Of a stretch of DNA of 64,000 nucleotides, positions 28,001 to 64,000 are shown piece after piece; positions within the stretch are counted from its first letter, which is position 1; each line of letters starts with the position of its first letter. Source of the stretch: Rhizaria sp. SCN 62-66. Taxonomy: Eukaryota. Where the stretch lies: the NCBI GenBank assembly GCA_001724265.1, contig MEDY01000240.1:1-64000 (forward strand). Reading direction: 5' to 3'. A model generated the notes under the pieces. That model was given only the letters and a program-made list of their open reading frames with translations, searched no databases and was not told the DNA's origin. The translations under genes and the position numbers were made by a program.

Positions 28001-29892
28001 CAACAGCAGCACGGTGACGGCGCGCAACCGGCCTCACCCAGCGGTTTCTTCAACAGCCCCGCTGTCCCCGGCCACGGCCACGGCCTGCCGCAGCTCACTG
28101 TAAGCACCGCCGCGGACGTCGCCGTCACGATCACCGACGCGGCGCCCGCCACCGCGGTGACGGCGGCCGCGTGGACCGCCTTCAAGGCCTCTCTAGTCGA
28201 TATCACGCCGACGGCGATCAACCCCGTCACGCAGGCGCCCGCGCTGTCTTCGCTGGCGACAGCGGCCGCGGCTGCGCTGGCGGTTCCCGCGCCGCTGGCC
28301 GTGCCCCCCATGACGCTGTTGTCGCTGTCGGGCTCTACCCCGGGCAGCCCGGCCGGCAGCCGCATCGCCTCCCCGTCGCCTCTGCAGAACAACAACGCGT
28401 ACAGCAACGCGAGCGCGGACGCCACACAGCGCCCTCTGTTGGCGAGCTCGGCCACCGCAGCAGCCTCCAGCTCCACTGCGTCTGCGCCTATGACTGCGCC
28501 TGGAAGTGCGTCTGTGACCGCGGGCCCGGGCGCGAGCGTCGTCGCCCAGCAGGCCAGCGCGCTGGGTTTCCCTCTCATCAGCACCGAGCTGGGCTCGGAC
28601 GTCATCCCCGCCGCCTTCCCCGCCGCCTCGCAGTCGCTGCACAACGCCGCCGCCGCGGCGCCGTTGCTCGCGGCCTACCGCGCGGGTGCGCTGCTCTCGC
28701 TCCCCGCGCTCTCGGCCGCCGCGGCCAACGGCGGGAAGGGCGGCAACAACAACGCTCCCGGTACGGCGCCATCAGCTGGGGCAGGCTCCAACACGACGGT
28801 GACCGTGAACAGCAGCGGCACGCGCTCTCGCCGCAACACAATCTCGCCGCGCTCTCAGACCCGCGCGGGCGCCCCGGCACAAGCGCAGGCGCAGGCGCAG
28901 GGGCAGGTGCAGTCTGTGTCGGGGGCTCGCTCGCGCCGGTCCTCTCTCGTCTCGCTGCTCGGCTCTTCCGAAGCCCCCCCGGCCGTTGCACGCAGCGCCA
29001 GCACCAGCGGCGGCGCGAGGGCGGGCGGTAGAGGCCCCGCGTCGCTGGTGGCCGTGGCACAGCTGCTCGACTGCGCGCTCGCGGCGCCCTCATCGCTCGC
29101 ACACGCCGCCTTCAAGGCCTTCGTCCCGCTCGCCGACCGCCCCGTCTCTGCCGCGAACAGCAGCAGCAGCAGTGGCGCTGGCGGCAGAAACGCCAAGCCC
29201 GGCTCTGCTGCGACCTTTGCGAGCCTCGCCAACCTGGACGCGCACGTGCGCTTCCCGGTCGCGTCACGCGTAGCGCAGGTCAAGGCGCTGCTGCCGCACG
29301 TGGCCGACGACGTCGTCGTCGCCGCGCTGCGCGACGCCGAGGCCGAAGCGTACAAGGCGTTGTTGAAGCTCACGCGGCCGCCCACAGTCGTCGCCATCAA
29401 CTGGGCCAACACGGGTGCAAACACTGGTGCGCAAACGAGCTTCTCCGACGCTAACGCCAGTCAGCGCTCGAGCGGCGGGCTCAACTCGCTTGTCATCAAC
29501 ACCAACAGCAATGCAGCAGCGAGTGCTCAGCAGCAGCAGGCCCAGAGCGGCGGTTTCTCGCTCAAGTCTCTGTTCCGCGGCTTCATGTCGTCTTCGTCCA
29601 CCTCGTCCCTCTCGGCGGTGACTGGTGCGTCCCCCGTCGCCGTCACCGCGACCCCGGCGACCGCAACCGCGACCGCAGCCGGTCTGCGGGACATGGGTCC
29701 ACCTAGCAGCCCGCTGATGGGGCCGACGCGCCCGCACACGCGGCTGCACACGCACGCCACCAGCGCCATCTCGAGCGCGCAGGGCCAGAGCCGCGGCCAG
29801 CCGCAGAGCCAGAGGCGGGGACGCGACCAGTACAACGGCGACGACAATGATGACAACAGCAATGCCCCGAACAACAACCTCGGCCTCCCCTC

Positions 29893-29929
<37 letters not shown>

Positions 29930-30113
29930 AACGCCAGCGCCGCAGCGGCCGCGGCGGACGGCTCAGACCCGCTGGCCCGCATGTCGCGGCTCATTGCTCA
30001 GCAGCAGGAGCGCTCCGCCGGCAGCGAGAGCCGCAACGCCCGCCGCAACAACAACAACAACAACAGCAGCAGCAGCAACAGTAGCAACCGCACCGGCAGA
30101 GCCGACAATGACA

Positions 30114-30144
<31 letters not shown>

Positions 30145-33100: not shown

Positions 33101-34624
33101 CTCACGCGCCAGGCCGGCTCGTCGTCGATCCTGACGCTCGACGTGTTCCGCCGCGTCGCACACGAGCTCATGCTCGCGGGCGTCGTCTTTGCGCCTGTGC
33201 TCTCGGCCGACCCGGGTTCGCGCCACGCGCTGTTGGTCCGGCAGACGGTCACGCAGCACTACGCGCACCTGCGTCCGTTCCTCGACGCGCTACTGGGCCA
33301 CCTCGCGGTCTCCGAGCGGCGCGAGGATGTCGCCGCCGTCGACGCGTGCGCCCGCGTCCGCGCGCTGCTCGAGGCGGATCTGGTCTCCCCGCCCGCAGCC
33401 GCAGCGCAGGGCAGCAGCACCGCTGCCGGCAGCGCCGGGCTGGTCGCCTTCTCTGCGACGAGGCTGCTCGGGTTGTACCGCGCGCTGCTGCACGTCGTGC
33501 TCTCTCATCAGTCGAGCTGGATGCTGTCGGCCGTGTCGCAGCTGCCCTCGGCGCCCGCGCTGCACTGCGAGCTTAAGGCGCTCGAGCACGTCATGCTCTT
33601 CCGCCACCAGCTCTTTGCGCACGGCGGCGCCGACGCGGAGGCCGGCGCCTGGCTCCACAACCTGCACCCAGGGCTCTTTGGCATTGGCAACAACGGAAGC
33701 GGGAATGGTAATCCCAGCTTTATTGGCCACAGCGGGAGCGACGGTGTGCCGATGCTGACGCAGCAGCCGTCTCTCTTCGGGGGCGGCCGTAACGGCGGAC
33801 AACAGCAACAGCAGCAGGATACCGACTGGCTCGGCGCTGGCGCTGGCGCTGGTTCTCGTGTCGGCAGCGCCAGCGCCACCGCCGGTCCTGGCGGGCTCGG
33901 CCGCCGCGGCACCGCCCGCGCCACGCCCACCAACGCCGCCGCCGCCGCCGCCGCCAGTGCCGCCGCCGCTGCTGCTGTGAACGCGGGCACTGCGAGCGGG
34001 CCCTTGTCGCCGTTCAACGGCGCGGCGGGCGGTCTGCGCAGTCCCAAGGGCACAGCGGGCCCCCTGTTCAGCCCTGTCGCGACCGCAAACGAGGTGAACG
34101 GCAACAACAATGCGGACAGTGAGGGCGATAACGGTGCGAACGACGCCGTCTCGTGGCTGTCGGCGTTTGATACCAACGACAGCCCGCCGTTCCCGCCCCC
34201 GGCCGCCGTGGGCGCGCTGAACGGCAAGGGCCAGGCCCAGCAGCAGCAGCAACAGCAGCAGGGCAAGGAGCAGAAGACAGCGACCCCTGCGGTGAGCATC
34301 GCCCGTCTGCGCTCACTGGGTGTGCTCGATAACCCCAATGGCAGCCACAACGGTCAGGCCGCCGCTACGGGCGCGCGCGGCGGCGCCGGTGGCAGGCTGG
34401 GGGCCGCAGGCGCCGCCGCCGTGGCTGGCCACGGTCACGGTCACGCTCGGATCGGCAGCGCGGGCGTTGGTGCGGGCACGAGTGCGAATGGGCTGCAGTA
34501 TCAGCCGGACACGCTGTCGGGGTACATCCAGACGTACGAGGCCGGGTTCATGCCCGAGCTCAACCGGCACGCAGTCCACGCGGTGCGTGCGCGGCAGCAG
34601 CAGGAGCAGGGACAGGGCCAGTGA
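25073..34624 (+). CDS. large protein with N-terminal axonemal dynein light chain (p28/AXDND1-like) domain, coiled coils and C-terminal EF-hand-like region, 3 exons, ~3061 aa
   Basis: EEQLVYDLFFHELIHQL...RDRAALLESIRLHY resembles the Ax_dynein_light domain, and LFASQDPLGQGRIDFPGF is EF-hand-like. Exons 25073-31083, 31218-32397 and 32630-34624 are joined in frame by AT-rich introns GTATGT..TAG (134 nt) and GTACGA..CAG (232 nt). Ends TGA. Confidence 0.78.
29894..29929 (+). repeat. (GAC)12 coding microsatellite (poly-Asp)
   Basis: Perfect GAC run read directly. It is one example of many GAC/AAC/CAG/GCC runs in coding regions. Confidence 0.9.
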
Positions 34625-38685: not shown

Positions 38686-39661
38686 TTAGGCGGACTCGTA
38701 CTCGCCGGATGAGGTGGTGATGGTCTTGGAGCCGAAGCAGCCCTTGATCTTGCCGACCGTGAAGATGCAGCCGTCCTTGGTGAGGCCGGGGATAGCGAAC
38801 CAGAAGTCCTTGTGGGGGCAGGCATCGAGGCCGCGCTTCTCGTACTTCTTCATGCAGACGATGCAGCCGATGGCGACGTAGAGGAAGATGCAGACGAAGA
38901 GGATGATGAGGAAGATGGCGCCGCCGGAGAGGCCGTCGTCGCCGTCGCCGCCGAGGCAGGCAATCTTGGACTTCATCTCGACGGTGTAGTTGCACGTCTC
39001 GGGCTCGTCGACGAGGAAGGACTCGGAGTTGGAGCCGCAGGTGATGAGCAGAGTGGTCTTGTGGGGACGGACGATGAGGCCGCCGCAGCGGGGGGAGTTC
39101 TCCATGTAGATCTTGACACCTACAAGAGCATTTAACGAAATAGAAACAACGCGGGAGGGCAACAAGTTAGACATTAAATAAATCAGGCTTCATGGTATTT
39201 GTGAATAGAGTTGTAGGTTGAGAATGTGATATCTAGACGTAGAGAAACGTACCGCTGGCAGGCTTAGCGGGGTCAATGAGGGAGTAGACGGGGGCGGGCT
39301 CCTCGTGGAAGGAGCCGAGGGAGGTGACGAAGACGGGGGGAGTCTTGTCGTACTGGCAGATGGATCCGTCGGCGGAGCGGCAGTTGGACTCCTCAGCGAC
39401 AGCGCAGATGTTGGCCGTGTAGGAGTAAGTCGGGTTGTCGGTGTCGGTGCCCTTGAAGGTGGTGGTGGCGAGGGTGTTGAAGTCATACTCCTTGCCGCCG
39501 GTGGGCTTGAAGATGCAGCCGGAATCACCGAGGTCGGAGTTCGAGCGGGTCATCTGAGCGAGGAACTTGGTGCGGAACTCGGACAGGAACGACGGCGACG
39601 CGGTGGCGCACGCCGCAGCGAAAGCCACTAGGCAGACAACGACCATCTTGGAAAACTTCAT
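38686..39661 (-). CDS. mannose-6-phosphate-receptor/ATG27-like type I membrane protein, 2 exons, ~280 aa
   Basis: Signal peptide, MRH-like domain (YDFNTL, YTANIC, LLITC, EPETCNYTVEMKSKIAC), TM segment GLSGGAIFLIILFV, PHKDFW..IPGL.KDGC and a YESA tail. Exons 39661-39253 and 39119-38686; intron GTACGT..TAG, 133 nt. Ends TAA. Confidence 0.88.
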
Positions 39662-48255: not shown

Positions 48256-51200
48256 TTACATGTGTTCCGCGGCAGCCATAAACTGTTTCTCCACGTCGAT
48301 CAGCGCCCCCGTCCTTCGCAGCACCCGCACCGTTCCATTCGCCATGCCCACCACAATTGCGCCGGTGCGCCGACACTGCGCCACCGCGGTGACCGCGACA
48401 ACCTCCTGCCGCGCCACCAGCGCCGCCGCCGCGGCCGCGACCGGGGCGGGGGCGGCGCGCGCCGCTGCGAGGCGGGCGGCCGCGGAAGGCAGCGGGGCGC
48501 GGAAGTCCCAGCCGGGGCCGCAGCTGGCCGTCGCGCGCGCCGCGGGCAGAGCCTCGCCCGTTACGACACCGGCACCAGCGCCAGCGCCGGTGGCGGCGGT
48601 GGAACCAGCAGCAACACTCGCGCCAACGCCCAGAGCACCAGCGGCAGCGTCGGTTCCATCATTGGCGGTGAAAATGATGTTGTTGGCCGCCATCGAGTTG
48701 AGGTGTGAGACCGACTGCGCGAGCACGAGGCCGGGACCACCGACCTTGACCGAGTGCAAAGGAGTAACCGAGAGCTGTGGTAGCGCGCGGGGCGGGCCGG
48801 CGTCGGAGTGTGAGGCGCTTGCAGCAGAGCGGGGAGAATAGCCACCAGGCTTGGGGACGAAGGACTGTCCCGAGACAAAGCCAGCGCTGTCGTCGCAAAC
48901 ACAATCAGCCGCGCGATCGCGCTTCCGTTCGTGGACAATTTGTGTTGCAGATAAAGCGATAGCGTCGCGCTTGAGGGTTGCTAGCGCGAGATCTGAATCG
49001 TAAGTAGAAACATCGATACCGTCAGCGGGGGTGTTAATAGTCTCCACTATTTTCGAGGCAGCATGTGCATCGTCTGAGCTATGCAAAGCACAGCATTGGC
49101 CACACAGACTGCAGTTGTAATAAAAGGTCTCAGTTGCGGTCGCCGGTGATCCAATAGACGATCGAGGGGCAAATGGCGCGGACACTGGGAGTGTGCGAAG
49201 GAACAGTAGAGATGCTGCCTCAAGAGCAAGCGCGTTCAGAGTCGATGTGCTCACAGTCGCAGTCCCAAGCGAAACTGAAGTAAAGCCCGTGTTGGTACCC
49301 GAGATCGAGCGCGCACGGGAGCTTGATTGCGAGTCGTCGTCTCTGTCATCCTCAAGCTTGAGCTCGAATTCCGAGCCCGAGCCCGAGTCAGACTCGGAGT
49401 CGGAGACACACGCAGTATTGCCGTGAGTGTCATCATCACCGCTGCTGTATTCGTTGCCATCCTCGACAGAAGCAGCGGCAACAGGCGAGGCTGCCACGGC
49501 TGCAGTTTCTTTGTCAGCAGAAGTGGGGGCTGACGGGGTCGCCAGCTTGACTTCGTTGTCTTCAGAGTCGCCAGCGCTAACCGCAGCGGAGACTGAGGCG
49601 GTAGTGGCAGAGGCTGGGCGAGTGAAAAACATGTCCAGCCTCGACTGCTTCGGCAGTGGCTGCGCCTGCCTCTGTGGATGTGGCGGCTTCGGCTGGGAGT
49701 TACTCGTACTTGAGCTGGTCTTGCTTGAGCTGGCCGCCTCAGTCTTCACGGTCGCGGACGCAGCGCTGCCACCGGAAGGGCTGGCTGACTTGGGACTTTT
49801 GTGATTACCTGTGTTAATAGGGCTCACTTTAGTGTCCAACTCCGATTTCGTCAAACCGCTTGACGCATTCAAGCGATGATTGTGGGCGGGTTTTTCGCCG
49901 CCTTGACCGTATTCGCTTTTGTTGTCGTTGCTTTTGCTCCTGGCGCCGAGGTGGCTACTGTGGTAGATCGCAGCCCTAATATACGGCGTAAGTGCTATGG
50001 CAACTGCGCGCAGCACGCTACCACCGCCGTTCTCGCGGAACAAAGACAGGGCCGCTGCAACCGTGCGGACACGGCAGCTATAACAAGCCCCCGCGGCCGC
50101 AGCAGATTTTGCAGAATTCGAGAATGTGTTCACGCTTTCTCCGCCAAAGCTGTTATTTGTGTCGAGTCGAAGATCAGCAACGTTGCCTGTGGAGCTGTTG
50201 CTACAAGGAAGCGACGCAGGCTGGGGCGGGCGGCACTGGTGTTGTTGGTGATGTTCCTTATGTTCAAGTTGAAATTGCTGTTGTTGTTGCATAAATATGG
50301 TCTTAGCAGAAACAAAGTCCGTTTTCACTGTTGCATCTGAAACAGTCGATGTGGCACTGACTTTGTGAGAATTGCTGTTTCCGTCAGTATCAAACTGACG
50401 CATGCGCGCGCTTTGCTGTTGACCTTGTTTTAGTTGCTGATATCGCTGCTGAAACATCCGCAATGTCGCTTGTCCGTTAGCACTGACATCACCCAGCACG
50501 CGAGTGCTCGGAGAGCTGTCGTCATCATCATCAGTAAGATCAGACAGTCCGTCGACGCTGCGGTGCGTCGACGTGCTCTTCGAGTTGCTCTGCCTTTGGT
50601 CGTCATAGTCGTCGTCCTCGTCGTCGCTGCCACTGCTGCCATCACGCCGGTGCCTGTTATTGCTAGTGAAAACCCTGTGAAATCCACCGTTGCCGACTTG
50701 CACGCGACCCAAAGTCACGTTTGAGCCAGACAGTAACTGTGCGCGCTTCCCATTGGCGAGTCGCAGTGTGTTGTTCAAGGCGACATCCGCATCATCAGCC
50801 AAACCGCCGCTGCTGCGCCAGAGGGCAGTCGCAACAAGCGGTGCTGCCGCAGTCGCCGCTTGGGTCAAAGCCTCAGCAGGCATTGTTGCACTAACGTTGA
50901 CTTGAGTAACGTCACTATTCGTGTGTTTGTTACGACCGATGTCGTGGTCGCATTTCGCGAGAAGATATGACAGTAGTTTCTCCCCAACCAACCCAGCGCC
51001 GTTGCCACCGTGCCCAGCCGCGGCCGCAGCAGCAGCGACCTTGGCGCCCCGACTGCTGTTTTGGCCGTGGCCGTTGCCGCTGCTCTTGCTCTTCGCGCTG
51101 GCGAGGCTGTCCATCGTGCGCGCGCGGGAGAGCGCAGTGACCAGGAGCAGCGCGGCGCGCAATCGGGGCAGCGCCGCGCGGAGCAGGCGGGTGGCCTCTA

Positions 51201-54200
51201 CCTGCAAGGACACCGCGGCCGCACAACTGACGCCATCAACGCCGGCAGCCTTAGCGTTGTCGCCTACGGCAGCACTCGTGTCGTTGCAGTCGAGAACGTT
51301 GTTATTGCAACTGTTGTCTGTTGTTGAGGTGGGGTGATCACGTGACAAGATCGGGGCCGTGAAGACTGTCTGCTTCGGTGCGTACAAGCTTAGGCCAGCG
51401 CTGCTACCGCCACTGCCCCAACCACCACTCGCGTTCACGCTGCGAGAATGTGTGTTTGTGCAGGGCTTGAATGTTGCGTTTAGACTTGAGGCAAAACCTG
51501 TCGCGCCAAAAGGTGATGATGCTACGGCCGTCAAAGCTGTACCCGAACCGGGGTTGCTGCCGTTGCGCAATGATGAAGCCTTCACACTGGCTGCCGTAGC
51601 GGCAGTACTCAGAGAGCTTAGCAAGTCGTCAAAACTAGAGTTGCTGGCGTTGGTGCTTTGATTGGGACTGTCTAAAGTCTCTAAGCGGGCGACAACGCCA
51701 AAAAGCCCTGCATGTACATCATCAGCAGACTTTTCGCCCAGAGCGTCGACAGGGTTAGTGATGGGATTAAACGAGTCAGTCGCGGAGCTAGAAGCGGGCG
51801 ATGCTGCTGCTAAAGCTGAAGCCGATGCGGCCGAGACCAAGGCAGAGTGCGAGCCTGTGACAGCGGCAAAGTGCAGCCAGTTAGTATCATCTCCGAACGC
51901 GACCACACTCAACCCGCTCCGGCCATTGAGGCTGTGGCCACTGCCCGCCGCAGCGCCGCCGGCGAGGCTCACGAAGGAGAACTTGCGGTAGTTGTCGCCG
52001 CGCGCGAGCGGCATGCGATGCTGCGGCGGCGGCAGCATGAAGCTATGCGCGGGCCGGCCGGAGCGCAGAAAGGACTCGATCAGCAGCCTGTCGCGCGCGC
52101 GGGCCTGTTGCTGCTGTTGCTGCTGGAGCTGTTGTTGCTGCAGCAAGGCAATAGTCTGGGCTTGCGTTAGAGCTGACGCCGGTAAACGCGGTTGCTGCTG
52201 TTGTTGCTGTTGTTGTTGTGGATGCTGCTGATGTTGTGCCTGGGATTGAACACTGCTTCGCTCGAAAGCACGGGGGCGGGAGCTCGAGCGAAGTGCCATA
52301 TCGTGCAAGTGCCTCGCGGGCGCCGGCGTCGGCGCGTACAGACTCGAGACGGCGCCCGTGGCCAGGTCAAACGCGATCAGCGCAAGCCCCGCGGTTTGGG
52401 CCACGAGCACCGACGGCCGCTGCGGGTGCGTCGCCGCGCTAAGAACGCCAAAGCCCGCGGAGGCGAGCGCTGCGGCCGCCGTGGGGGAGAGCAGCGGCGG
52501 GGGTGGCAGCTGGCCGGGACCGAAGCTACTGGCAGACATTGCCGCCGTTGCCGCTGTCGCTGATGTGAAGGCCGATAAAGAAGCGCGAGAGGGGGCTGCG
52601 GTGGCGGTGACGGCTAAGTCGGTGAGCAGGCGACGGCCGCAGAGCCAGGAGCGGCTTGACTTCAAGCTGTCGAGAGCCATGACGGCGGAGACGGCAGCTG
52701 CAGAAGCTGCTGCTGGCGCCATGTGAGCCGTATCATGCGCTGCAGCGGGGGCTAGGTGACTGTGAGAAGCTGTGTTGAGTTTACTGTGATACGAGGCAGG
52801 TGGGGGATATACGCACAGTTCCACACGACGGGGATCGACATCAGTAGCATCAGCTGAATCATTGCTCTTTGGAGTGAAGCCGTCATTATTCATAGACTTT
52901 GATTGAAAGTAAAAGTAGTCGTCATCGTCGTCATCATCGTCGTCATCGTCATCTCGCATGTTCTCTTTCTTGCCCCCCGTCGTACCGCAGCCGCCGCCAC
53001 CACCGCTCTCCAGGTACAACGCGCGGCCCGCCCGCGCCTCCCGCTCCGCCCACTGCTCCCACGCCACGGCTTCGGCCACAGCGGCCTCCAGCGCCAGCGT
53101 CGGCAGGTGCAGCCCGCCGAAGCCGCCGCCGCCCGCGCCAGAGCCCGCGGCAATGACCGAGAGCCCGAAGGCGCGGAGGTCGAGCACGTCCAGGTGCCCG
53201 CTCGCGGTGACCGTGAGCAGCGTGTGCGAGCTCGACGACAGTAGCGGCGCGACGAGCGGGTGCGACGCCGCGAAACCGGGGCCATGGCTCTAGACAGCAT
53301 TAGAATGACTGTGCGACAGGCTCGTGTGCGCTGCGAAGGCTTTGTTGTAGCTCGAACTGAAGATGTCTACCTCGCTACCGCAGTGCATATCATGCCTGCT
53401 GCTGGCGCTGGACGGCTCTACATCTGCGTCTGGGAACACGACCGAGACGATGCGTTTGTCGACGGTGGTCGTGCAGGTGGAGAGCGATGAATGCAGCGAT
53501 TGCGGGCTCACGCCCCAGACAGACATCAGCGACGAGGCCGCCGCGGAGGCGAACGCAGTCGCGGCGGTGCGCGTGCTGGCGCTCGCAGCCGCACTCGCAG
53601 AGCTGGTGGCGTTTGAGGTTGAAACAGGCGATGACAGACCAGAGTCTCCAGATGCAGTTACGTTTGCAGTCGCTGCGGCTGCTGCGGCGGCAGAGGCAGC
53701 CTTCTCCGCCGCGCTTGCAGCCTCTTTCAGAGCATACTGCGTCCAGCTGTCGACGCTCGGCGCGATACGGTAGTAAATACCGGAGCCAACGCTGGTCACG
53801 GAGGACGTAGTGCTTGACCGGAGCACATTGTGGCAGCTGGAGGCGACTGCGGTAACGCCGTTAAGCGGCAAGTTAAGCCGCCAACTTGGTGGGGCGGCGG
53901 CCGTGAGAGCGTCAGACTGCACCGAGACGTGGGCGGCGTTATTGTTTGTGCTGAAGTTGCTATCCGCGCTGGCAGTGTGGTGCGTGTGAGTGTGGCTGTT
54001 TGTGCGTGTGTTCATGTTGTTGTCTGAGAATAAACTGTACTCGTCATCGTCGTCATCGTCGTTAATCGCGCTACTGCTGCGGACAAATCCGCCCCGAGCG
54101 CCTACACCGCCGGTATAGTTCGTCCCCGCAGCAGAATTAGCACGGATGCCGGCGGTGCTGTTCATTGCGCTATTACTGTTGCTGTTGCTGTAGCGCGATG

Positions 54201-56931
54201 TAAACACCGGACTCGACCGCCCACTGCTCACACCGGCGGAGTTCGCGCCGCCCCCGCCGCTGTTGTTGTTGTTGTTACCGCCAAGCAGCAGCCTGTGCGC
54301 AGTGCTCACAGTCTCCTTGTAGGCGGGCATGCGCACGTCCCAGACGAGCGTGTGGCCGCCCTCGGTGCCCGCGACGACAACGGCGGGCGCGTGCGGCGTG
54401 GCGGCTAGTGCTGTGAAGCGCGTCGTTGTGTTGTACAGCGAGGACGGCAGCAGCAGCGTCGTGTACGGCCGCAGCGACATTGTTGGCGCCGTCGCCGTCG
54501 TCGGCGCCGCGCTGGGAAAGCGCACCGTGACGGTGCCGTCTGCGCGATCGCCCACGCTGCCAAATATATCGTCATCATCATCACTATCATTGCTGTCGTC
54601 GTCTTTAACATGAACGGAGTTGTTGCTGTGGGAAGTTGCGAAAGAAGCGTTCTGGACAGTCGCATCAATAACATTTTTGTAGTCGCAGGCCGTGGTATAT
54701 GCTGACTGTGATGGCGCGAGCAGCTGGGAGCTTGTGTTCGCAACCGCCTTACCAGTCGCGATATTCAAGCACTGCTGATGGGTACTAGTAACACTGTTCG
54801 TGTTTGCAGTGTCAGCGGACGCGTTATCGACAATGGACATCAGTGAGTCCCACCGGCTATGCTCACAGTCACCAGTTAGATCAGCGCTACCTCTTAGAGA
54901 CTCGCTGTGACTGCTGCTTAAAGCACAATCGTCAACAGTCGGTGCAAGCACGGCGCCGCGCGAGGCGACGAAGCGCAGCAGCGCGCCAGTTGTCACCACG
55001 TCGGCATCGATCGCGGCGACCGCGGCAACAGGAGACGGTGCAGCGTCAGATGATGCATTTTGCGAAATTTGTTGTGTCGATTCGCGGATTCGCGCCAGAA
55101 CAACACGTGAGTCGCTCTGGGCACTGTTTAAACCAGGTGATGTTGTTGTGACTAAACAACGCCTCTTGTTGTGCGAGAACAGTTGGGTATCGTCGTCTTC
55201 AATGTTGTCGTCTTCGTGCGCATCGTGAGCGACGGTGACGGCGGTACTCAGTAGCAACCGCCTCCGTCGCTGCTGGAGCTTCTCTAAACGAAAGCCGTGC
55301 CTCTGTCGCTGCAGCTGCCCCACGCTCAACGCGTAGCTCGACGCCACGTGCGCGCGGCCGCTTGCGACCGCGAAGCCCTGCACGAGCCGTAACGTCTCCC
55401 GGCTGCCGGCGCCCACAACGCTCGTGCGCCCGGCCAACACCGCAGCGCCGGACGCAGCCACAGAGCCCTGACCGCTGTGGTGACCAGGTGTGAGTGTCAG
55501 CATAGAGTTAATGTTGGCTATCGGGTTAGATAGGAATGATATGTCGTAAATATAGGCCGCTTTGGACGAAAACCCGACGACTGCGAGCAAACCGCCTTTG
55601 TCTGCTCCAAAGCCACCAGTGCAAGCACTTAGGTTAGAGCCAAGTGTAGCACTGATATTTTTATCTATGTTTGAGTCAGCTTTACCACTGGTGCCGCTGG
55701 TTGTGTTGCTGTAGCGAGGGGACATCCCCGTAGCAACAACAGCAGCGGGTGCGGGCAAAAAGCGCATCGCTGTGACTTTGCTGCCAATGCTAAACGCAAT
55801 CGCCGCAGTCGCGCCTGCGCTGGCAGCAGTGCCCGCATTTGTGACAGGGCTGGCTGCAGCATTAGTTGCAGCCGGGCCTGAAACCAGCGGCTTCAGCGCC
55901 TGGCTCGCCCCGGTCTCAGCACCGATCGCACTTGCGCTCGCAGCGCTAATACTGCTGTTGGGATTATGCGACGGGAATACAGCGCTGTTGAGCGTCGCCT
56001 CAGCGTGTTCGCTGCCGTCCCAGCCGTTGTCCTCAACACTGCATTTGCCCTTAGCAGTCGCGTGACGAGTGCGGAAACTTGTACCAAAGCGAATTGAGTG
56101 TTCTTTTAATACAGTCTCAATCGCGCCTGCAGCCAGCTCGCGCAAAGTCACAGAGCTACGCCGTAAACCTGCATTGTTGGCACTGGCTGCACTCCCACTT
56201 ACACTCGAGACTGAGGTACCTACATTGAAGTCAGTCCTGCTCAGACCACGACTGTTATCGTCGCCAATGCAGCCATCCTCCGCGGCGGCGGCGCGGTGCA
56301 CGGCCGTGGCGAGCGGCGTTGCGGCGATCGCGAGCCCGGGCGCCGCGTGCGTGTCGGCAAGGAAAAGCAGGTGCCGTACAACGGCGTTCTCGACGGCGGC
56401 GGCGACGAGGCGGCCGTCGCGCACGCCGAACTCGCGCAGTAGCGACACAACGCGGCCGCAATTCAGCGCGGAGAGGTCCAGCTGCGCAAGCACCTCGCTC
56501 GGGGGGCAGAACGGGAGCGCGGAGGCCGCGGGCGCGGAAGCAGCGGCGGTGGCGGAGCTAGAAGAGGAGGGGGGAGAGCAGAGGAGCTCGCGCTGCACCA
56601 CGAAGTCCATGTGGGTACGCGCGTCGCCAATAACCAACTTGGATAACGCGTTGGCAACGTGGGTAATGCGCGCGCAAAAGTCTTCGTATGCATTTTCAAA
56701 TGAATACACCTCGATCAAGCCCGCGTACGTCGCAGATGCCAGGAGGGAGCCATCCGGCGAGAAATCCAGCGCGATTACGGGGCTTTCATCAGCGCCGGAG
56801 AAGCGCGACGCGTTTGACAAGCCACGTGGGGTAAAAAACCATGGCATAAGACGGTATTGAGAAGCAGCGTCTACTGCGGAAGGGAGAGGCGGGCCGAATG
56901 GGACGGCGGCGTCATGGCCGCAGATGTCCAT
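48256..56931 (-). CDS. giant WD40-repeat protein with low-complexity inserts, ~2891 aa, with in-frame TAG at 53290-53292
   Basis: Blades VIALDFSPDGSLLASATYAGLIEVY, FTALAATPHAPAVVVAGTEGGHTLVWDVR, LLTVTASGHLDVLDLR and VTAVAQCRRTGAIVVGMANGTVRVL. The two track ORFs are in the same frame, separated by a single TAG. Ends TAA. Confidence 0.75.
53290..53292 (-). other. in-frame TAG (putative sense codon)
   Basis: ...TCT AAT GCT GTC TAG AGC CAT GGC CCC...; the frame continues ~1680 codons to TAA. Confidence 0.6.
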
Positions 56932-57253
56932 CAGGAGCCTCTGCGGGGGCAGGGATAAACAGATATAAACATGGGATTTAGACAATATAATTACATACTA
57001 TAGTATGAAAGTCACAATCCTATTCAATAAAGTTGGATCATTTCAATAGACGGATCCTGTGATGTACATCACTCACTGCGATGAGGGTGAACAGAGCGCG
57101 AAAGCAAGACTCGCCGCTTGCCAGTCGCTGGTGGTTGCTGGCAGGGGGGTCTCCCAACGGCTCGATCGGATCGCGAACTTTGTTTTCAAATCTCGTTGCC
57201 TTAACATCCGTGTAATTGTCTGCCAGGCAATTGCTTCGGATTTTTGTGTAAGT

Positions 57254-60200
57254 ATGCAAACACAGACATTTTCCCTGCCTCCCGGAGTGCGTGGGGACGT
57301 CTTGGGTGAGATCGCCCTGACGATCGACCGCGTGCAGTGGGCAGTCAAGGGCAGCAGCAAAGTTGGTCTTCCCGCAGGGCCAGTCTTTGTCCGCGCGAAA
57401 TGGTGGGGTGACGAAGGCGTGAACGGCGCGTCTATTTTCCTCCCTGCTACATACCCGTTGCGTCCTTCACAACAAGACACTCTCAAAAACACCATTGTGT
57501 ACGGTGTTCGTGGCGACATCAGTCGCTACCTTTCTGGTTCGTCCCTCTTCTTTCTCTTGCTTCATGTAATGACAACTTCCACTCTGACAAATGAGCACAT
57601 ATAGTTCACTAAATGTGTTATTTTATTCTCACAATGCGTTATACTCTGGCTTGTGTTTATCTTTGTCCGAAACTCTCTCCTCGCAGACATGAAGCTGCTG
57701 GTGTGCGACGTCTTCCCCCTCGAAGCCTCCTTCGACGCCGCGGCCGTGCGCCGCGAGAGCTACAAGAAGGCCTCCCGCATCCTATGGCCGAACCGCCGGC
57801 TGCCCGCGACGCCGGCGCCCGCGCCGCTGGCCGTGGCCGTCGCCGACCTCACCACCTTCGTCGACCTCCTCTCGCAACGCGACAGCAACACAAGCAAGGC
57901 CAACGCAGCCAACGCCACTGCTGCTGCGGATACAGCGCTGCCATCGACGAGCATCTGCATTGACGTGCCGATTGTGCAGGCCACGCGCGTCCTGGGCCAG
58001 CTTTCGCTGCACCTGGCATTCACGCCCTTGTCGGGGCTGCCGCAGTTGCTGGCCCCGGGCCCCGCCGCCGCCGCCAAGGCCGCCGCTGCCGCCGCTGCCG
58101 CGAAGGGCCAGGTCAGGGCGGGCGCTGAGGCCGCGGCCGCGCTGGGGGCGGCGCAGGAGCACCCCTTCGACCAGTTCCCTACTGTAGCTACTGCTGCTGA
58201 TCCCGCCATCAACACTAACACTTCCGCTGCGACGGCGGCGGTGGCAAGCGCACCTCGCGAGAGCGCCGCTGGCGGCAACGCTGCTGCTGCGGCTGCTGGT
58301 ATGTGGCGGCCGCAGTCGCCGACGTTGCAGTCGCCGTCGCCGCGGGCGCCTCTCAATGGCCAAGGCCTCCACGATGTCTCCACACAGCATCAGCAGCACC
58401 AGCAGCAACTGCAGCAGCAGCAGCAGCAGCAGTATACTGGGAGCAACAACGGCAGCATGACCGAGACGGCGAACCTGCTCTTGACCCCCCGCCCTCTCAC
58501 CCAAGGCCAGCAGCAGCAACAGCAGCAGTATGCCCAGCAGCAGCAGCAGTATCAGTCTCAATCTCACTACAGCAGTGACGCGCAGCTGCTGCAGTCCCCC
58601 CAGCCCCAGCATCTCTCCTCGCAGCTCAGCAACAACAACAGCAGCAGCGGCGGCATCAACGTCAACGCAAGCGTGTCTGTGAGCAGCCGCGACCGCGATC
58701 ATGGCTGCGACCGCGAGCGCGCGTCGGCTTACGGCGCAAACCTGCCGCAGATGCCCCTCCCTCAGCCCCAAGACCAACAACAGCAGCAGCAACAACAGTA
58801 GCAGCACGCAGCGAGCTCTAGCTCTAGCTCAAGCGCGAGCGCTACCTCTGCCTCAGGTGCCCGCTCTGGCACTGGCTCTGCGCTGGACTCGCTGTTCCCG
58901 CCGATGCCGCTGAGCGCAAGCGCGCACCCCGACCTGCTCGCCCTGCGGCTGACCGTGGAGCAGGCGTCTCTCTTCGCCGCCGATGCCGCACTCGCCTCGG
59001 CAGTCTACACGGGCCGCCTCCCCGCACCCGCGCTCGCGCCCCCGCCCCTCGCTGCGCTCTCCGCGGCGGCGTCCGCCGCGCCCGGGTCGATTGGCGCGCG
59101 CGCGGCGGCGGCGGCGACGTTCGCGACGGGCTACGTCTACGCTACGATCACACCCTGCCCCTCGGCGCTGGCCACCGCCGCCACCACCGCCGCCGCGCGC
59201 GCCGCCGCCGACGAGGGCTACAGCAGCAGCGTTGCGTTTAGCAACGGCGTTTACGCGCCCGCGCCGCCGCTGGCCGCAATCCCGCTCGACTCTGCGCCGT
59301 TCGTGACGCCTCTCGTGCCCGCGCGGCCGCACCCACGCTGGCTCAGCACCAACACAGTTCCGCGCATCTTCTCCGCGCACCTGCCCGCAGCGCTGCGCGG
59401 AATGCGGCTCCGCTTCCGCGTGCACTGGTGCCCGCCGCACGTCGCGGCGATGCTCCGAGTCAGCGGCTACCTGCCGCCGACCGTGGGCGGCCATAGTACG
59501 GACGCGGGAGCCGAGTCGACTGGCTCTAGCCCCCTCGACGCGCACACCCGCGACGCCACCGCCGTGGCCGTGACCGTGGCCGGGGTCGGCGCCGCGAGCA
59601 CGACGTGCCACGCCACCGCCGCCGCCGCGGGTGCAGCGGCCGGCGCCTATTACGGCCCCCACCAGCAGCAGCAGCAGCGCGGGGGGCTGGGGCGCGGCGG
59701 ATGCCTGCGCCCGGCGGCATGCGGCTGCGGCCACTGCGGCTGCCCTGTCTGGGCCATCTACCGCCACGGCAGCAACTCTAGCTCTCGCATCTCCGATGCT
59801 GACCCCAGTAGTGCGAGCAGCAGCGCAGCGGTGGGTGCGGCGGGTCCTGTGTCGCGGCTGCAGCGGCTGCTGGACTCGGCCACTGCCCCCGGCTCCGGCT
59901 CTGGCTCTGGCTCCAGTTTTGGCTCTGGCTTGGGAGCGAGCGCTAGCGGCGGCTCGAGCTGGGGCGGCTACAGCATCGTCCGCGCCGACGCCCGCCCCCT
60001 CACGACGAGTGCCTCTGGCCCCAGCCAGCACGGGGGCTCGCTGTTCGCGCACGCCGCCGAGGGACTGGCGACGCAGTTGGCTACCGCGCTGCGCGGAGTC
60101 GCCGCCGCGCGCGCCGTACCGCCCCTGCTCTCCCCGCTGCCGCTGCCCGCTGTCACCACGACGACGACTGGCGGCGCGAGCGGCGGCGATGTGGAGTGCG

Positions 60201-63200
60201 TGGCCGACACGGACGGTGGCCGCGGCGTGCGCGTGTACGCGCGCGTGCTCATCGATGACAACCTCTGCGACCGCGACTACTACATGCGCACCGCGACCGC
60301 CGCCGCCAACGCCAGCAGCGGTAGGAGCAGGGCCGCAATGTGCAAGCGCGATAGTGACGAGGTTGACGTGCTGTGCAGCAAGTGCTGGCAGCAGAGCACG
60401 ACGCGCCTCCCCACCGCCGCCGACCTCGCCGGCGTCGTCGGAAACGGCGACTCGACTAGCTTTGAGGTGCTGTGCGCGTACTGCAACGCGGCGTCGGCGA
60501 GCTTGCTCCCGCTGCTGCCCGCCGCAGCTGTGGACGTGCGCGCGCTCAGCGTGACACTGGGCGAGGCCGAGCTCACTCTCGACGCCGCCGCCGTGGCCGG
60601 TGTAGCCAGCCTGCAGGAGCGCGTGCGGCTACACTACCTCACCAAGGAGCACAACAAGAACAGCAGCAGCTATGGCAACGCCATTGATGACGACGGCAAG
60701 GACGCTGAGCCCAAGGTCGGGGTCAGGGTGCTCGCGTCGACCATCCTTACGCTCAAGGAGCCCGTCGCCCCCTGTCCCACTCATAGCGGCAGCGCCCCCC
60801 GCTGCCCCGCGCAGCCCGCGCGGCCCGCGGCGGCGGCTGCGGAGACGACAGGCTCTTTGGCCGTGACGGTTACTCTGGCGCCGCTGGAACACGCGGCCGC
60901 GCTGGCGCGGCTCGAGGCGACTGCCATCCAGGCTGAGCGCCGTAGTGACGCGGCCGAGGCGGGGGCCGTCGCGCTGCCGGGCGTGTGCGTGCCCATGCGC
61001 CTCACCGCCGACGCCGCGCGCATGCACCGCGCTGCGCTCAGCGACGCGCTCAATAACAATAACAACAGCAGCCCCAACAGCAATAACAGCGTGAGCATCA
61101 CTCTCGAGACGCTGCTGAGTAAGGTGCTGCCGGCGGTGCGCGCGCAGGCCGCCGCCGCCGCCGCCACGGCCGCCGCGGTCGACCATCGCTCTCGCAACCC
61201 CCTCAACCCCGCCTCTGCCGCTGCCTCTGCTTCTGCCGCGACAGCTACAACTGCAGCGGCGGCGACTGGGACGCACGCAGCACCCGCGGCCACGAGTACC
61301 CCGCGCGTGCCCGTCGCGGTGCCGGGCCGCGTGCTGGTCCCGTGGCCCCGACTGACGCTCAGCCTCGCCGACCTGCGGCTGCCGCTGTCCTGGGCCCGGG
61401 CGCCCGCACTGGCCGCGCTCGCTCTGAGCTTCTTCAGCGTCAGCGTCTCGCACCCCGGACTCGCCCCGCCGCGCCAGCCCTGGCTCGTGCCCGCCGGCAG
61501 CGTCGGCGCGAGCGCCAGGAATGTCGGTTGCGCTAGCGGCAGCAGTGACCCCGGTGTCGGTGGGAGCGGCGGCGGGCGCGCGCTGGCGCTGCAGTCAGGC
61601 TGGCGGCCGCCCATGGCCACGCACGCCGTGCGCGGCGACATCGTCGTCGCCGAGTACCCCAGTCAAACCAGCCAAGCCAGTCAAAACATCAACGCCAGCA
61701 GCAACGCGGACGACGCGAAGACTGACAGCTCTAGTGTTGAAGTCGCCTCTGCGAAAAGCAAGACTGCTGTCGCCGTTGCTGGCGCGACTGCCACCGCGCC
61801 AGTGCCCGTACCCGTGCTCTGGGTGCCTCTGCGCGCGGCCACGCAGCTTACCCCGCTTGCGGCCACTCCCTCCGCTCACGGTCACGGTGAAGAGATTATG
61901 GTGACTATGAGCGAGCTGCGGGCCACGCTGGCCGCGCTGCGCCGCGCACCACTGCTTCTCACGGTCACCATGTCGGACTCGCCATTCGCGCCCATCTCCA
62001 CAGCAACCACTGTCGAGGCTGACGGCGACTGTGCGGACAACGGCGACACCGATGGCGAGAGTGGCGACTGTGAGCATACGACGCGTGACCACTTGCAGCC
62101 GCGGCAGCAAGTGACCGTGAGCGCTCTGGACGGCTCCATCGCGCTCCCACCCGCCCACAGCCGTTCCGGCGCGCACGGCCCCGGCTACGGGCCCGCGCAC
62201 AGCACCGCCGACGCCGCCGCAGCCGCGCCCACGGCCACGCCCGCGATCGGCTCGCTGCAGGACCCGTGCCCCGGCGTGCCCGTGGACTTCGACGCTGTCG
62301 CTTACCTCGCCGCGCGCCCCGGCACGTACACCGGCTCCATGGGGACTTACACCGGCGACGGCGAGGGCGCGGAGGGCTATCAGTACGGCAACGGCGTGCC
62401 TGCGCAGTGGGACGCGCGCGGGCGCCGCGTGCACAACCCCTTCGTGCGGACCACCGCGCCCTTTTCCGCCGCGCCGCTCCGCAAGACCGCGGCCGCGGAC
62501 AAGCTCGCGCTCCACAACAAGAGCAACGCCTCCGCGGGCGTCGGCAACGGGGGCTTTCACGGCAATGGCAACGGCGGGAATAGCAACGCGGGCATCATGT
62601 CGGCCGCTGCGGGTCACTCCGCCTCCGGTGCTAGTTCTAGCTCTAGTTCAAGTGGCGCTTCTGTGAATCCCCCCGGGATGCTGTACGGCCGCCGCACCGG
62701 CTACGACGTGGCCCCTGCGCACCTGGCACGCCTCGCCGACACCGTGCGCGACTGCGCCGTCCGCCGCGGCCACGGCCTCGGCCACGGTGACGGCGACGGC
62801 CAAAGCGGGGAGGACGAATGGGCTGTGGACGCGGCGACCGCGGCCGACACGCTCGACATCCACCACCACGACGGCGACGGGAATGTCGCTAATACTGGCC
62901 GTGAGTTCGCAACTGTGGCCGCGCGCGGCGGACGTCTGCTGAAGAACACTGACTTCGCGACCACTCAGCATGTGTACGACGTCATCACCGGCGCAACCTA
63001 CGAACGCAAGCTCCGTGGCGAGCAGCCACTGCGTTCTGTTGGCAGCAGCGGCAGCAACAGTAACGTGACTGCAAGCGGCGTCAAGACGGGCAGCAAGGCC
63101 ATCGCCGACTGGCTCTGGAAGGAGAAGGTGTGCGCCAGCGGCGTCTTCACCGTCGCCAACGCTAACGGCAGCGGCAGCGGCAGCGACAACGGCGCCGCGA

Positions 63201-64000
63201 TCACTGCTGCCAGCACTGCTAACAGCAGCAGCAGCAACAGCAGCAGCAAGGCCAGCAGCGGCGCCAGCGTGTGCAGCGGGTCCAACACGCGCGAGATCGC
63301 TACGTGCGCCGTCTCCGCCAGCGAGCTCGCGGACGCGCTCGTCGCCTCCGTGGCGATGCGGCTTAACTTGAAGGACCCGCGCCAGCTCGACCGCGAGTAC
63401 GGCTTGACTTTCATCTCGGACCCCCGTCGCCAGCAGCGCAGTACAAGCGTCTCCTCGCAGTCCAGCGGCGCGAGCAATAGCGACGGCAACGCCGCGTTTG
63501 GCGTGAACGCGCTCAGGCGCCGCGAGACCGCGATGGCGGTGGCGCTGCTGGCGGCGCCGCCGTCGCCGCTCGACGCCGCCGCGGCGGCCGCGGCGAAGCG
63601 CGAGCCTGTGTGCGTGGGCGCGCTCGCGCGGGCCGGCGTTGTCGACTACACCGTCGCGCCGTGGGCCGCGGCGGGCGCGGGCGGCGAGAGTGAGACGAGC
63701 AAGGCTGCGGCGGCCATCAACGCGCTCCAGCAGCAGCAAGGCGACGACGGAGCCGCTGTGGCGGCCAACGAGGAACGCAAGCCGGGCTGCCCTGTGACGA
63801 CGCATAAGCCGCTGAGTGAGGCTGCGCTGGTGCGGCTTGACTTCAAGATCGACCCCTATGTAGCCGACGGTAGCAGCGGCAGCAAGAGCGTTGAGTCGGT
63901 GACTGCGGCTGAGGAACATGAGGCGTGGGAAGCTTACCTGCAATCGCAACAGCCGCCACAGAAGCCGCAGCAGCAGAAGAGTCAGCTCAACAACTCAATG
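57254..64000 (+). CDS. C2CD3: C2CD3-like centriolar protein (3' end outside window), with in-frame TAG at 58799-58801
   Basis: N-terminus SLPPGVRG..LTIDRVQW..VRAKWWGD..YLSDMKLLVCDV..LGQLSLHLAFTPL parallels the C2CD3 N-terminal C2 domain as I recall it. Intron 57537-57686 (GTTCGT..CAG) restores YLSDM. After the TAG the frame appears open for 1733 codons to the window end, because no closed ORF is listed in the track despite in-frame ATGs. Confidence 0.8.
58799..58801 (+). other. in-frame TAG (putative sense codon, likely Gln)
   Basis: GAC CAA CAA CAG CAG CAG CAA CAA CAG TAG CAG CAC GCA. Confidence 0.7.

What the first reader, a model, noticed from the sequence alone, without database searches (positions are those of the whole stretch)
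58772..58830. TAG embedded in a poly-Gln codon run of the C2CD3-like gene
Seen: eight CAA/CAG codons, then TAG, then CAG CAC. The frame then stays open ~5.2 kb with beta-strand-like segments (LLALRLTVEQASLF, LRGMRLRFRVHWC). Stopping here would leave only ~465 aa, whereas C2CD3 is a >2000-aa multi-C2 protein (established). There is no AT-rich intron, pyrimidine tract or consensus donor nearby. Inference: TAG is a synonymous variant of CAG. Caveat: three upstream polyQ runs in this gene end in CAG TAT, so Tyr (or a TAT>TAG miscall) is a second possibility.
Basis: partly seen in the sequence, partly recalled or inferred. Interest (0 to 1): 0.8.

Follow-up and report, generated by a model that had tools for sequence, protein, structure and literature searches.

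The report
In-frame TAG inside C2CD3-like gene
A giant centriole-protein gene of an uncultured wastewater protist has a TAG stop codon in mid-sequence, and so does the gene next to it, which hints, without proving it, that this organism reads TAG as an amino acid.

Summary
At 58775-58798 there are eight CAA/CAG codons, then TAG (58799-58801), then CAG CAC. The frame then stays open to the window end (1733 codons) and, judging by a stored protein, for 3053 codons in all.

The TAG is real DNA: contigs of other runs bridge it unchanged.

New points:
- A second in-frame TAG (53290-53292, minus strand) joins two long ORFs (1235 + 1677 codons) of the neighbouring, divergently transcribed gene.
- After both TAGs, G+C stays at 0.70-0.72 and the coding score stays gene-like. 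After the gene-end TAA/TGA stops it falls to 0.30-0.50.
- All 13 gene ends I could place use TAA (7) or TGA (6), none TAG.
- The six recognisable introns are AT-rich, 131-230 nt, with GTNNG donors. Nothing like them spans either TAG.

Best reading (about 0.5): TAG is translated here, most simply as Gln, while TAA and TGA terminate.

Main rival (about 0.3): two real nonsense alleles under the standard code. With this codon usage, 72% of one-step nonsense changes give TAG, and a Q-TAG-Q context promotes Gln readthrough in yeast.

No RNA contig, homologue or tRNA settles it. Only the N-terminal C2CD3 domain is shown; C2 domains downstream are a weak lead.

The parts
57254..57536 (+). Exon 1 of the C2CD3-like gene: ATG plus the first half of the N-terminal C2 domain of C2CD3
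   Evidence: Pfam PF25339 C2_C2CD3_N, E 4.7e-13, 49.6 bits, residues 6-94 on profile positions 2-83 of 145. The match stops at the exon end, also when the intron is read through. RNA contig X5 record 27 lies on 57304-57500.
57537..57686 (+). Intron, 150 nt, phase 1, GTTCGT...CTCGCAG, AT-rich
   Evidence: My reading. Low-G+C segment 57457-57693. Same type as five other introns in the window. No spliced RNA contig was seen, so this is inferred.
57687..58798 (+). Exon 2 up to the TAG: low-complexity, Ala- and Gln-rich coding sequence with four polyQ runs
   Evidence: Open frame with G+C by codon position 0.68/0.50/0.78. Coding score of the 60 codons before the TAG is 0.34. No Pfam family.
58799..58801 (+). 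In-frame TAG, flanked CAG-TAG-CAG, after eight Gln codons
   Evidence: Unchanged in contigs of X2 and X3 that lie on 58441-59548.
58802..64000 (+). Continuation of the same frame: 1733 codons in the window, 3053 in all by P0001
   Evidence: G+C by codon position 0.68/0.62/0.84, like the other genes. Coding scores after the TAG are 0.39 and 0.40. No low-G+C segment after 57693. PolyA-RNA contigs lie on 59224-59742, 59763-59994, 61454-61763, 62005-62279 and 62542-62785. Weak C2-type leads.
53290..53292 (-). Second in-frame TAG (GTC TAG AGC), in the neighbouring divergent gene
   Evidence: Bridged with no change by contig X4 record 17 (53151-53707), from another study and a strain that differs elsewhere.
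53293..56931 (-). Upstream ORF of the neighbouring gene (1213 codons from the ATG), with weak WD40 signal at its N-terminus
   Evidence: Pfam WD40 E 0.0023, below the curated cut-off. Coding score of the last 60 codons is 0.27.
48256..53289 (-). Same frame after the second TAG: 1677 codons ending in TAA. The first 110 codons have no ATG but look coding
   Evidence: G+C by codon position of those 110 codons is 0.75/0.61/0.90 and their coding score is 0.31. G+C of the 150 nt after the TAG is 0.72. PolyA-RNA contig X5 record 25 lies on 52921-53270, ending 20 nt short of the TAG.

Best explanation
The TAG at 58799-58801 is a real codon in the middle of one long gene. That gene has exon 1 with the C2CD3 N-terminal C2 domain, a 150-nt intron, and then one exon of at least 3400 codons. 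I think it most likely that the ribosome of this uncultured protist does not stop at TAG but inserts an amino acid, most simply glutamine, while TAA and TGA end its genes. That would be a code of the NCBI table 15 type.

Shown: the TAG exists in DNA of several runs. Coding character continues across it. A second gene has the same feature. No gene end in the window uses TAG.

Inferred, not shown: translation through TAG, the amino acid, and the machinery. The machinery would be a tRNA with anticodon CUA, or near-cognate reading by tRNA-Gln(CUG), together with a release factor that recognises UAG poorly. TAG would be a rare codon (2 in about 17,000 codons), so the change would be young, or decoding inefficient or ambiguous.
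For: 1. Two in-frame TAGs sit in two neighbouring genes, each followed by a very long open frame: 3053 and 1677 codons.

2. Of 156 stop codons with at least 60 open codons on both sides in any of the six frames (94 TGA, 48 TAG, 14 TAA), only three have a coding score above 0.2 on both sides. They are these two and 31773(-), which is the antisense shadow of a spliced + strand exon. Flank scores are 0.34/0.39 and 0.27/0.41. In-frame windows average 0.46 (sd 0.22, n=191), and 1% of 955 off-frame windows exceed 0.25.

3. G+C of the 150 nt after the TAGs is 0.70 and 0.72. After 14 TAA/TGA stops it is 0.30-0.50, and further stops soon follow.

4. Gene ends: TAA 7 (663, 15450, 22354, 38126, 38686, 40322, 48256), TGA 6 (3763, 17147, 22007, 34622, 34956, 44530), TAG 0. 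The one TAG that looked like a terminator (39233) lies in an intron.

5. The TAGs are real. X2/X3 contigs bridge 58799, and an X4 contig from another study bridges 53290.

6. The six introns are 131-230 nt with G+C 0.35-0.42 and donors GTATGT, GTACGA, GTACGT, GTACGA, GTTCGT, GTACGT. Nothing comparable spans either TAG.

7. There is no AT-rich, promoter-like gap between the two parts of the C2CD3-like gene. PolyA-RNA contigs cover the stretch between the second TAG and the next ATG, while X5 has no depth over the intergenic bin 56812-57212.

8. Gln fits the site: TAG is one transition from CAG, inside a run of Gln codons. UAG-only codes with UAA/UGA kept as stops are known (PMC5304391 abstract and section 6; passages of PMC11687900).
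Against: - There are only two TAG codons in about 17,000 codons, and none in the conserved genes (carrier, NOG1-like GTPase, Vms1-like, PhoPQ-related, DUF4200). The rhizarian exLh had 384 in 71 genes.
- With this codon usage, 1719 of 2378 one-step nonsense paths (72%) give TAG. 'Both are TAG' therefore hardly separates a code change from two nonsense mutations.
- Thirteen gene ends is a small sample. If TAG ended 20-25% of genes (an assumed share), 0 of 13 has probability about 0.02-0.06 (my arithmetic).
- No tRNA gene is in the window and there is no Rfam match.
- No RNA contig bridges either TAG.
- No relative of either gene exists to align. There was 1 hit, itself, among 1.84 billion representatives, and the clusters are singletons.
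- The whole neighbouring gene scores below the 0.2 cut-off used, because its third-position G+C is only 0.64-0.66.
- Strain differences in the downstream ORF are 3 synonymous and 2 not, too few to show selection.
Confidence: 0.5

Rival explanations
1. The organism uses the standard code, and both TAGs are real premature stops (nonsense alleles fixed in this lineage). The proteins are truncated, or enough full-length protein is still made by near-cognate Gln readthrough, which a Q-TAG-Q context favours.
For: With this codon usage, 72% of one-step nonsense changes give TAG. The two affected genes are among the largest and least constrained in the window: low complexity, no relatives. TAG is absent from all conserved genes. 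In yeast, premature stops inside a Gln-rich domain gave about 5-7% full-length protein and wild-type growth, with Gln inserted, helped by a QXQ flank (PMC13192750, abstract and section 5). Site 58799 has exactly that flank. A single recent stop would leave the rest of the frame intact.
Against: Two of roughly 15 genes would each be broken exactly once, with no frameshift or second stop in 3053 and 1677 downstream codons. The second TAG has no Gln context (GTC TAG AGC). The TAG at 53290 is shared by a strain that differs at other sites. No gene end uses TAG (0 of 13). Another cilium-type gene (DUF4200) is intact, so loss of cilia is not evident.
Confidence: 0.3
2. Each TAG lies in an unrecognised intron that is spliced out, so no stop is ever read.
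For: Frame-keeping candidates exist (and my reading). For the first TAG: 58299 (GTATGT) to 58856, 558 nt; or 58679 (GTGAGC) to the TAG itself, 123 nt. For the second TAG: 53357 (GTTCGA) to 52752, 606 nt; or 53370 (GTAGAC) to the TAG itself, 81 nt, with a CTAAT branch-like site. Two of the six known introns end in TAG. No RNA contig covers either site.
Against: The six known introns are 131-230 nt, G+C 0.35-0.42, with GT-N-N-G donors and pyrimidine tracts. The candidates are G+C-rich and codon-structured (58299-58856: 0.66/0.45/0.79 by codon position). They are also too long or too short, or have off-type donors or no pyrimidine tract. A frame-keeping length is expected for one candidate in three by chance. 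The polyA-RNA contig 52921-53270 lies inside the 606-nt candidate. The 68-nt candidate from 53357 to the TAG breaks the frame.
Confidence: 0.08
3. The TAGs are true gene ends, and the downstream ORFs are separate genes with their own starts (ATG 58904 and ATG 52959).
For: The public gene call P0001 starts at ATG 58904. Pfam finds no C2 domain downstream, so a link to C2CD3 is not proven.
Against: There is no AT-rich spacer: every other gene end is followed by 150 nt of G+C 0.30-0.50, here it is 0.70-0.72, and there is no low-G+C segment after 57693. The 110 codons between the second TAG and ATG 52959 have third-position G+C 0.90 and are in a polyA-RNA contig. Language-model hits for the first 200 downstream residues are C2-type (9 of the 10 best named, scores only 0.75-0.78).
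Confidence: 0.05
4. Sequencing or assembly error: the true base at 58799 is C.
For: Depth of the organism's contigs is low (about 4-7). CAG repeats break assemblies here, and many foreign repeat contigs pile up on 58015-58816.
Against: Contigs of X2 and X3 carry the TAG with no difference listed at 58799-58801. X4, from another study, carries the second TAG. The same kind of error twice, both producing in-frame TAG, is unlikely.
Confidence: 0.02

Closest known systems
UAG-only reassignment to glutamine with UAA/UGA kept as stops (NCBI table 15 type): Iotanema spirale, Protocruzia tuzeti, some phyllopharyngean ciliates
   Same: In-frame TAG; TAA and TGA at gene ends, none TAG; one TAG sits among Gln codons (PMC5304391 abstract; passages of PMC11687900).
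   Different: There the meaning was inferred from many UAG codons at conserved Gln positions. Here there are two codons, no alignable homologue, and a G+C-rich, non-ciliate organism. Its one conserved carrier gene sits next to oomycetes in a single-gene tree, which is only a weak placement. The codon would be far rarer.
Rhizarian exLh (Sainouroidea): UAG = Leu, stops UAA/UGA
   Same: UAG decoupled from UAA. UAG is rarer in highly expressed genes, read there as inefficient decoding (section 6 of PMC5304391). Here TAG is seen only in two giant low-complexity genes.
   Different: exLh had 384 UAG in 71 genes, mostly at conserved Leu positions. Here the context of one site suggests Gln rather than Leu, and nothing tests it.
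Gln-codon-driven readthrough of premature stops in yeast (snf5-Q225X, QXQ motif)
   Same: A stop flanked by Gln codons inside a Gln-rich low-complexity region, with the downstream protein still needed (PMC13192750 abstract and section 5).
   Different: That is a laboratory nonsense allele in a standard-code organism, giving about 5-7% product. It does not explain the second TAG (Val-TAG-Ser) or the lack of TAG terminators here.
C2CD3 (centriole/cilium protein with an N-terminal C2 and several further C2 domains)
   Same: The N-terminal C2 domain of C2CD3 is present (PF25339, E 4.7e-13). The protein is very long if read through. There are weak C2-type leads downstream, including one C2CD3 cluster at rank 18.
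   Different: Only profile positions 2-83 of 145 match. No canonical C2 domain is found by Pfam in 3019 downstream residues at E up to 10. Most of the sequence is low complexity.

Membership tests
C2CD3 family | N-terminal C2 domain specific to C2CD3 (Pfam PF25339) | tested here: met
   E 4.7e-13, 49.6 bits (cut-off 27), but only profile positions 2-83 of 145, ending at the exon 1 boundary.
C2CD3 family | Several further C2 domains along a protein of more than 2000 residues (architecture recalled, not taken from a call) | tested here: inconclusive
   Pfam finds 0 families in 58802-64000 at E up to 1 and 0 in P0001 (3019 aa) at E up to 10. The PDB sequence search gave only noise. Two single-sequence AlphaFold models had pLDDT 41 and 36 and were unusable. 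In the ESM Atlas, 8 of 10 and 9 of 10 best named hits are C2-clan families, but at scores of 0.75-0.82, which the tool calls leads only. Length is met only if the TAG is read through.
C2CD3 family | Orthology to C2CD3 of other eukaryotes by sequence | tested here: not met
   No relative was found. The word-based search for longer proteins with exon 1 returned only itself. The full HMMER search of 57689-61288 returned only itself.
Nuclear code with UAG as sense codon and UAA/UGA as stops | In-frame UAG inside genes whose coding character continues | tested here: met
   Two sites, 58799(+) and 53290(-). No others were found in the window.
Nuclear code with UAG as sense codon and UAA/UGA as stops | UAG absent from true gene ends | tested here: met
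   0 of 13 ends (7 TAA, 6 TGA). The sample is small, and gene ends were placed by composition, plus domain or homologue reach for three of them.
Nuclear code with UAG as sense codon and UAA/UGA as stops | UAG aligned to one amino acid at conserved positions of homologues | not testable with these tools
   No homologue of either TAG-bearing gene. No whole genome is held. The conserved genes of the window have no TAG.
Nuclear code with UAG as sense codon and UAA/UGA as stops | Cognate tRNA (anticodon CUA) and an altered eRF1 | not testable with these tools
   ARAGORN found 0 tRNA genes in the 64 kb and Rfam found 0 matches. The rest of the genome is out of reach.
Context-driven Gln readthrough of a stop (QXQ type) | Gln codons directly flanking the stop, in a Gln-rich message | tested here: inconclusive
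   Met at 58799 (CAG TAG CAG, four polyQ runs). Not met at 53290 (GTC TAG AGC).

The most novel reading that the evidence does not exclude
An uncultured, G+C-rich wastewater protist, possibly allied to stramenopiles, is at an early or ambiguous stage of capturing UAG as a sense codon. UAG is no longer used to end genes and is tolerated, and translated (probably as Gln), at rare sites in giant low-complexity genes. It is not yet found in conserved genes. That would be a living intermediate of stop-codon reassignment, in a lineage where my two literature searches listed no nuclear code change.
Probability: 0.3. Interest if true: 0.8.

Novelty: new member of a known kind. Interest (0 to 1): 0.6.

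Why it matters
UAG and UAA almost always change meaning together. Only a handful of nuclear lineages are known where UAG alone became a sense codon. Another case would be useful for three reasons: it would lie outside the ciliates, it would sit in a G+C-rich genome where the codon is still very rare, and the organism recurs in wastewater reactors over years. That combination would give a natural system for studying how a stop codon is captured.

There is also a practical point. Standard-code gene callers split such genes: the public call P0001 starts 34 codons after the TAG. Protein catalogues from such metagenomes would therefore be wrong.

If the TAGs instead prove to be nonsense alleles, the case is ordinary. 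It would then be of interest only as a possible natural example of Gln-context readthrough.

Tried and rejected
**Getting more sequence or context**
- No whole genome is held for the window.
- The record behind L004 is not held for searching.
- Two scans of prokaryote genome contigs for misbinned contigs of this organism found nothing.
- The metagenome scan gave L002 (the same DNA as window 15901-20458), L001 (carrier 75% identical, 1.4 kb) and L003/L004 (65% identical, G+C 0.53-0.54). These showed no synteny with the window, so they told nothing about the TAGs.

**Homologues**
- The full HMMER search of 57689-61288 (TAG read as Q) found 1 protein, itself.
- Exon 1 against longer proteins found only itself.
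- The clusters of P0001 and P0108 are singletons, so no strain with a longer ORF was found. Five of the 7 exact look-ups were not in the collection.

**Domains downstream**
- Pfam found nothing. PDB sequences gave noise.
- Two single-sequence AlphaFold models (pLDDT 41.0 and 36.3) were too poor to search with.

**Sequencing runs**
- No contig of the polyA-RNA run X5 bridges either TAG.
- X4 has no listed contig over 58799.
- The many joints listed around 58098-58806 have 19-27-letter sides in CAG/GCC repeats and come from repeat contigs, not from splicing.

**Other checks**
- A short-window coding scan (25 and 40 codons, threshold 0.3) returned only an antisense artefact at 15763 and missed both TAGs, so it was dropped.
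- My first score distribution had two training intervals out of frame and was redone.
- TAG 39233(-) looked like a terminator but lies in an intron. TAG 31773(-) is an antisense shadow.
- Viral-type readthrough motif (UAG CAR YYA, recalled): the site matches only the CAG, so this was rejected.
- Taxonomy: named hits of the NOG1-like GTPase were green algae and a liverwort, over only 18-42% of the query. Those of the carrier were oomycetes at 31-36% identity. The FastTree of 34 chosen sequences out of 75 hits has no support values. No firm placement.
- Supplementary tables of the papers were not seen.
Full report
**What is there.** The window is G+C-rich eukaryotic DNA with long ORFs and few, short, AT-rich introns.

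In the frame that starts at ATG 57254, the first 94 codons match the N-terminal C2 domain of C2CD3 (PF25339, E 4.7e-13, profile positions 2-83 of 145). The match stops where I read a 150-nt intron (57537-57686, GTTCGT...CAG, phase 1).

The frame resumes at 57687 and runs through Ala- and Gln-rich sequence to eight CAA/CAG codons, then TAG at 58799-58801, then CAG CAC. It stays open to the window end, 1733 codons. A stored protein, P0001 (3019 aa, 100% identical from ATG 58904), shows it stays open for 3053 codons in all.

**Is the TAG real?** The stretch is held by coded metagenome runs from bioreactors and wastewater, 2015-2025.
- Contigs of X2 and X3 lie on 58441-59548 with no difference at the TAG. 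X3 differs only at 58702. The two runs have contigs of identical lengths and may be nearly the same data. X1 may be the source of the window.
- No contig of the polyA-RNA run X5 crosses the site.
- Its contigs do lie on exon 1 and on five stretches of the downstream ORF, and it has no depth over the intergenic bin 56812-57212. This fits RNA rather than carried-over DNA.

**A second case.** On the minus strand, the neighbouring gene starts 322 nt away and runs in the opposite direction. It has an ORF of 1235 codons (53290-56997) that ends in TAG at 53290-53292. The same frame then runs on for 1677 codons to a TAA at 48256.
- The 110 codons between this TAG and the next ATG have third-position G+C of 0.90. 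They read like protein (…LLTVTASGHLDVLDLR…).
- A polyA-RNA contig lies on 52921-53270, ending 20 nt short of the TAG.
- A contig of X4 (another study; a strain with four differences elsewhere in this gene) bridges the TAG unchanged.

**Do the TAGs behave like this genome's stops?** No.
- After 14 TAA/TGA stops, the next 150 nt have G+C 0.30-0.50 and further in-frame stops soon follow. After the two TAGs, G+C is 0.70 and 0.72 and the frames stay open.
- I trained a codon-usage score on 11,810 codons. It gives 0.46 ± 0.22 for 191 in-frame windows of 60 codons, and 1% of 955 off-frame windows exceed 0.25. The flanks of the TAGs score 0.34/0.39 and 0.27/0.41.
- Of 156 stops with 60 open codons on each side in any frame, only these two and one antisense shadow (31773) score above 0.2 on both sides.
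- Reading TAG as sense merges no other coding ORFs. Every other TAG in such ORFs lies in a 5' leader or an intron. The neighbouring gene as a whole falls below that scan's cut-off, because its third-position G+C is only about 0.65.

**Gene ends.** I could place 13: seven TAA, six TGA and no TAG. One well-scoring ORF seemed to end in TAG (39233), but that TAG lies 16 nt inside an intron that begins GTACGT.

**Introns.** Six introns can be read. Their donors are GTATGT, GTACGA, GTACGT, GTACGA, GTTCGT and GTACGT. Acceptors are a pyrimidine tract plus CAG or TAG. Lengths are 131-230 nt and G+C is 0.35-0.42.

Candidate introns over the TAGs exist and keep the frame: 558 or 123 nt for the first, 606 or 81 nt for the second (and my reading). 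They are G+C-rich and codon-structured, of the wrong length, or have off-type donors. The RNA contig 52921-53270 lies inside the 606-nt candidate. I give this rival 0.08.

**Why not simply call it a code change?**
- Two codons in about 17,000 is very few, and the conserved genes have none.
- With this codon usage, 72% of all one-step nonsense changes produce TAG, so two nonsense alleles would look just like this.
- The affected genes are the kind that tolerate damage: huge, low-complexity and without relatives. The full HMMER search found 1 hit, itself, among 1.84 billion representatives.
- In yeast, stops inside a Gln-rich domain with a Q-stop-Q flank are read through by tRNA-Gln. This gave about 5-7% full-length protein and normal growth (PMC13192750, abstract and section 5). 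Site 58799 has that flank.

Against this rival:
- The second TAG has no such flank.
- Two of about 15 genes would each be broken exactly once, with no other lesion.
- No gene end uses TAG.

I weigh the two readings at about 0.5 (TAG is translated as part of this organism's normal decoding) and 0.3 (nonsense alleles, with or without readthrough).

**Which amino acid?** Gln is the simplest answer. TAG is one transition from CAG, the site is inside a Gln run, and Gln is the commonest meaning of reassigned UAG. Tyr fits the local pattern of polyQ runs ending in TAT. Leu and Ser are the other UAG-only meanings in print. Nothing here tests this.

**Is it C2CD3?** Only the first half of the N-terminal domain is shown.
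- Pfam finds nothing in exon 2 or in the 3019 downstream residues.
- PDB sequences gave noise.
- Two single-sequence structure models failed.
- Language-model look-alikes of the first 1100 and first 200 downstream residues are mostly C2-clan families: RPGR1_C, NT-C2, DUF1005, C2, C2-C2_1, Aida_C2, and a C2CD3 cluster at rank 18. Their scores of 0.75-0.82 count only as leads.

**What organism?** Unknown. The mitochondrial carrier's closest named relatives are oomycetes at 31-36% identity. In a FastTree of 34 chosen sequences out of 75 hits, it sits in an unnamed environmental clade next to them. Named hits of the NOG1-like GTPase were green algae and a liverwort, over only 18-42% of the query. 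My searches listed no paper on a nuclear code change in stramenopiles, nor in eukaryotic genomes assembled from activated sludge (search listings only).

**Limits.**
- Only contigs, not raw reads, could be laid.
- Supplements of the papers were not seen.

**Verdict.** It remains unproven until the organism's other genes or its RNA are examined.

Noticed in passing
window 56932-57253: The two TAG-bearing genes are neighbours, transcribed in opposite directions from a shared 322-nt AT-rich spacer. The polyA-RNA run has no depth over the bin 56812-57212 that holds most of the spacer.
   Followed up: partly
window 25073-34624 (+): Three long ORFs appear to be one gene of about 3100 codons, joined by two AT-rich introns (about 31085-31220, GTATGT...TTTAG; about 32399-32629, GTACGA...CCCAG). 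The TGA at 32446 lies in the second intron. No Pfam family was found in the two exons scanned (31222-32448; 32540-34624); the first exon was not scanned.
   Followed up: partly
window 3763-14907 (-): An uninterrupted ORF of 3714 codons with no Pfam family at E up to 0.01.
   Followed up: no
window 22354-24363 (-): A PhoPQ-activated pathogenicity-related (PF10142) gene is split by an intron. Profile positions 1-166 lie in 23515-24363 and 213-367 in 22354-23262.
   Followed up: partly
window 38686-39661 (-): A small two-exon gene for a secreted or membrane protein (signal-like start, a hydrophobic span near the end). It has the highest coding scores in the window (0.68-0.75). Its intron holds the TAG at 39233 and the gene ends in TAA.
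   Followed up: partly
window 52918-52950 and 58015-58816: GAC/GAT (polyAsp) and CAG (polyGln) runs attract large numbers of repeat contigs from other organisms in all four runs. Depth and joints there are meaningless.
   Followed up: no
whole window: Near-identical DNA is held by bioreactor and wastewater runs of several studies between 2015 and 2025 (shares 0.71-1.00 for X1-X4), so the organism recurs in such systems.
   Followed up: partly
window 58853-63994 (-) and 31773-32390 (-): There are long antisense 'shadow' ORFs opposite real genes: up to 591 codons, with first-position G+C of 0.81-0.86. One pair is joined by a TAG with a gene-like score. Codon-score scans in this genome need a strand check.
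   Followed up: yes
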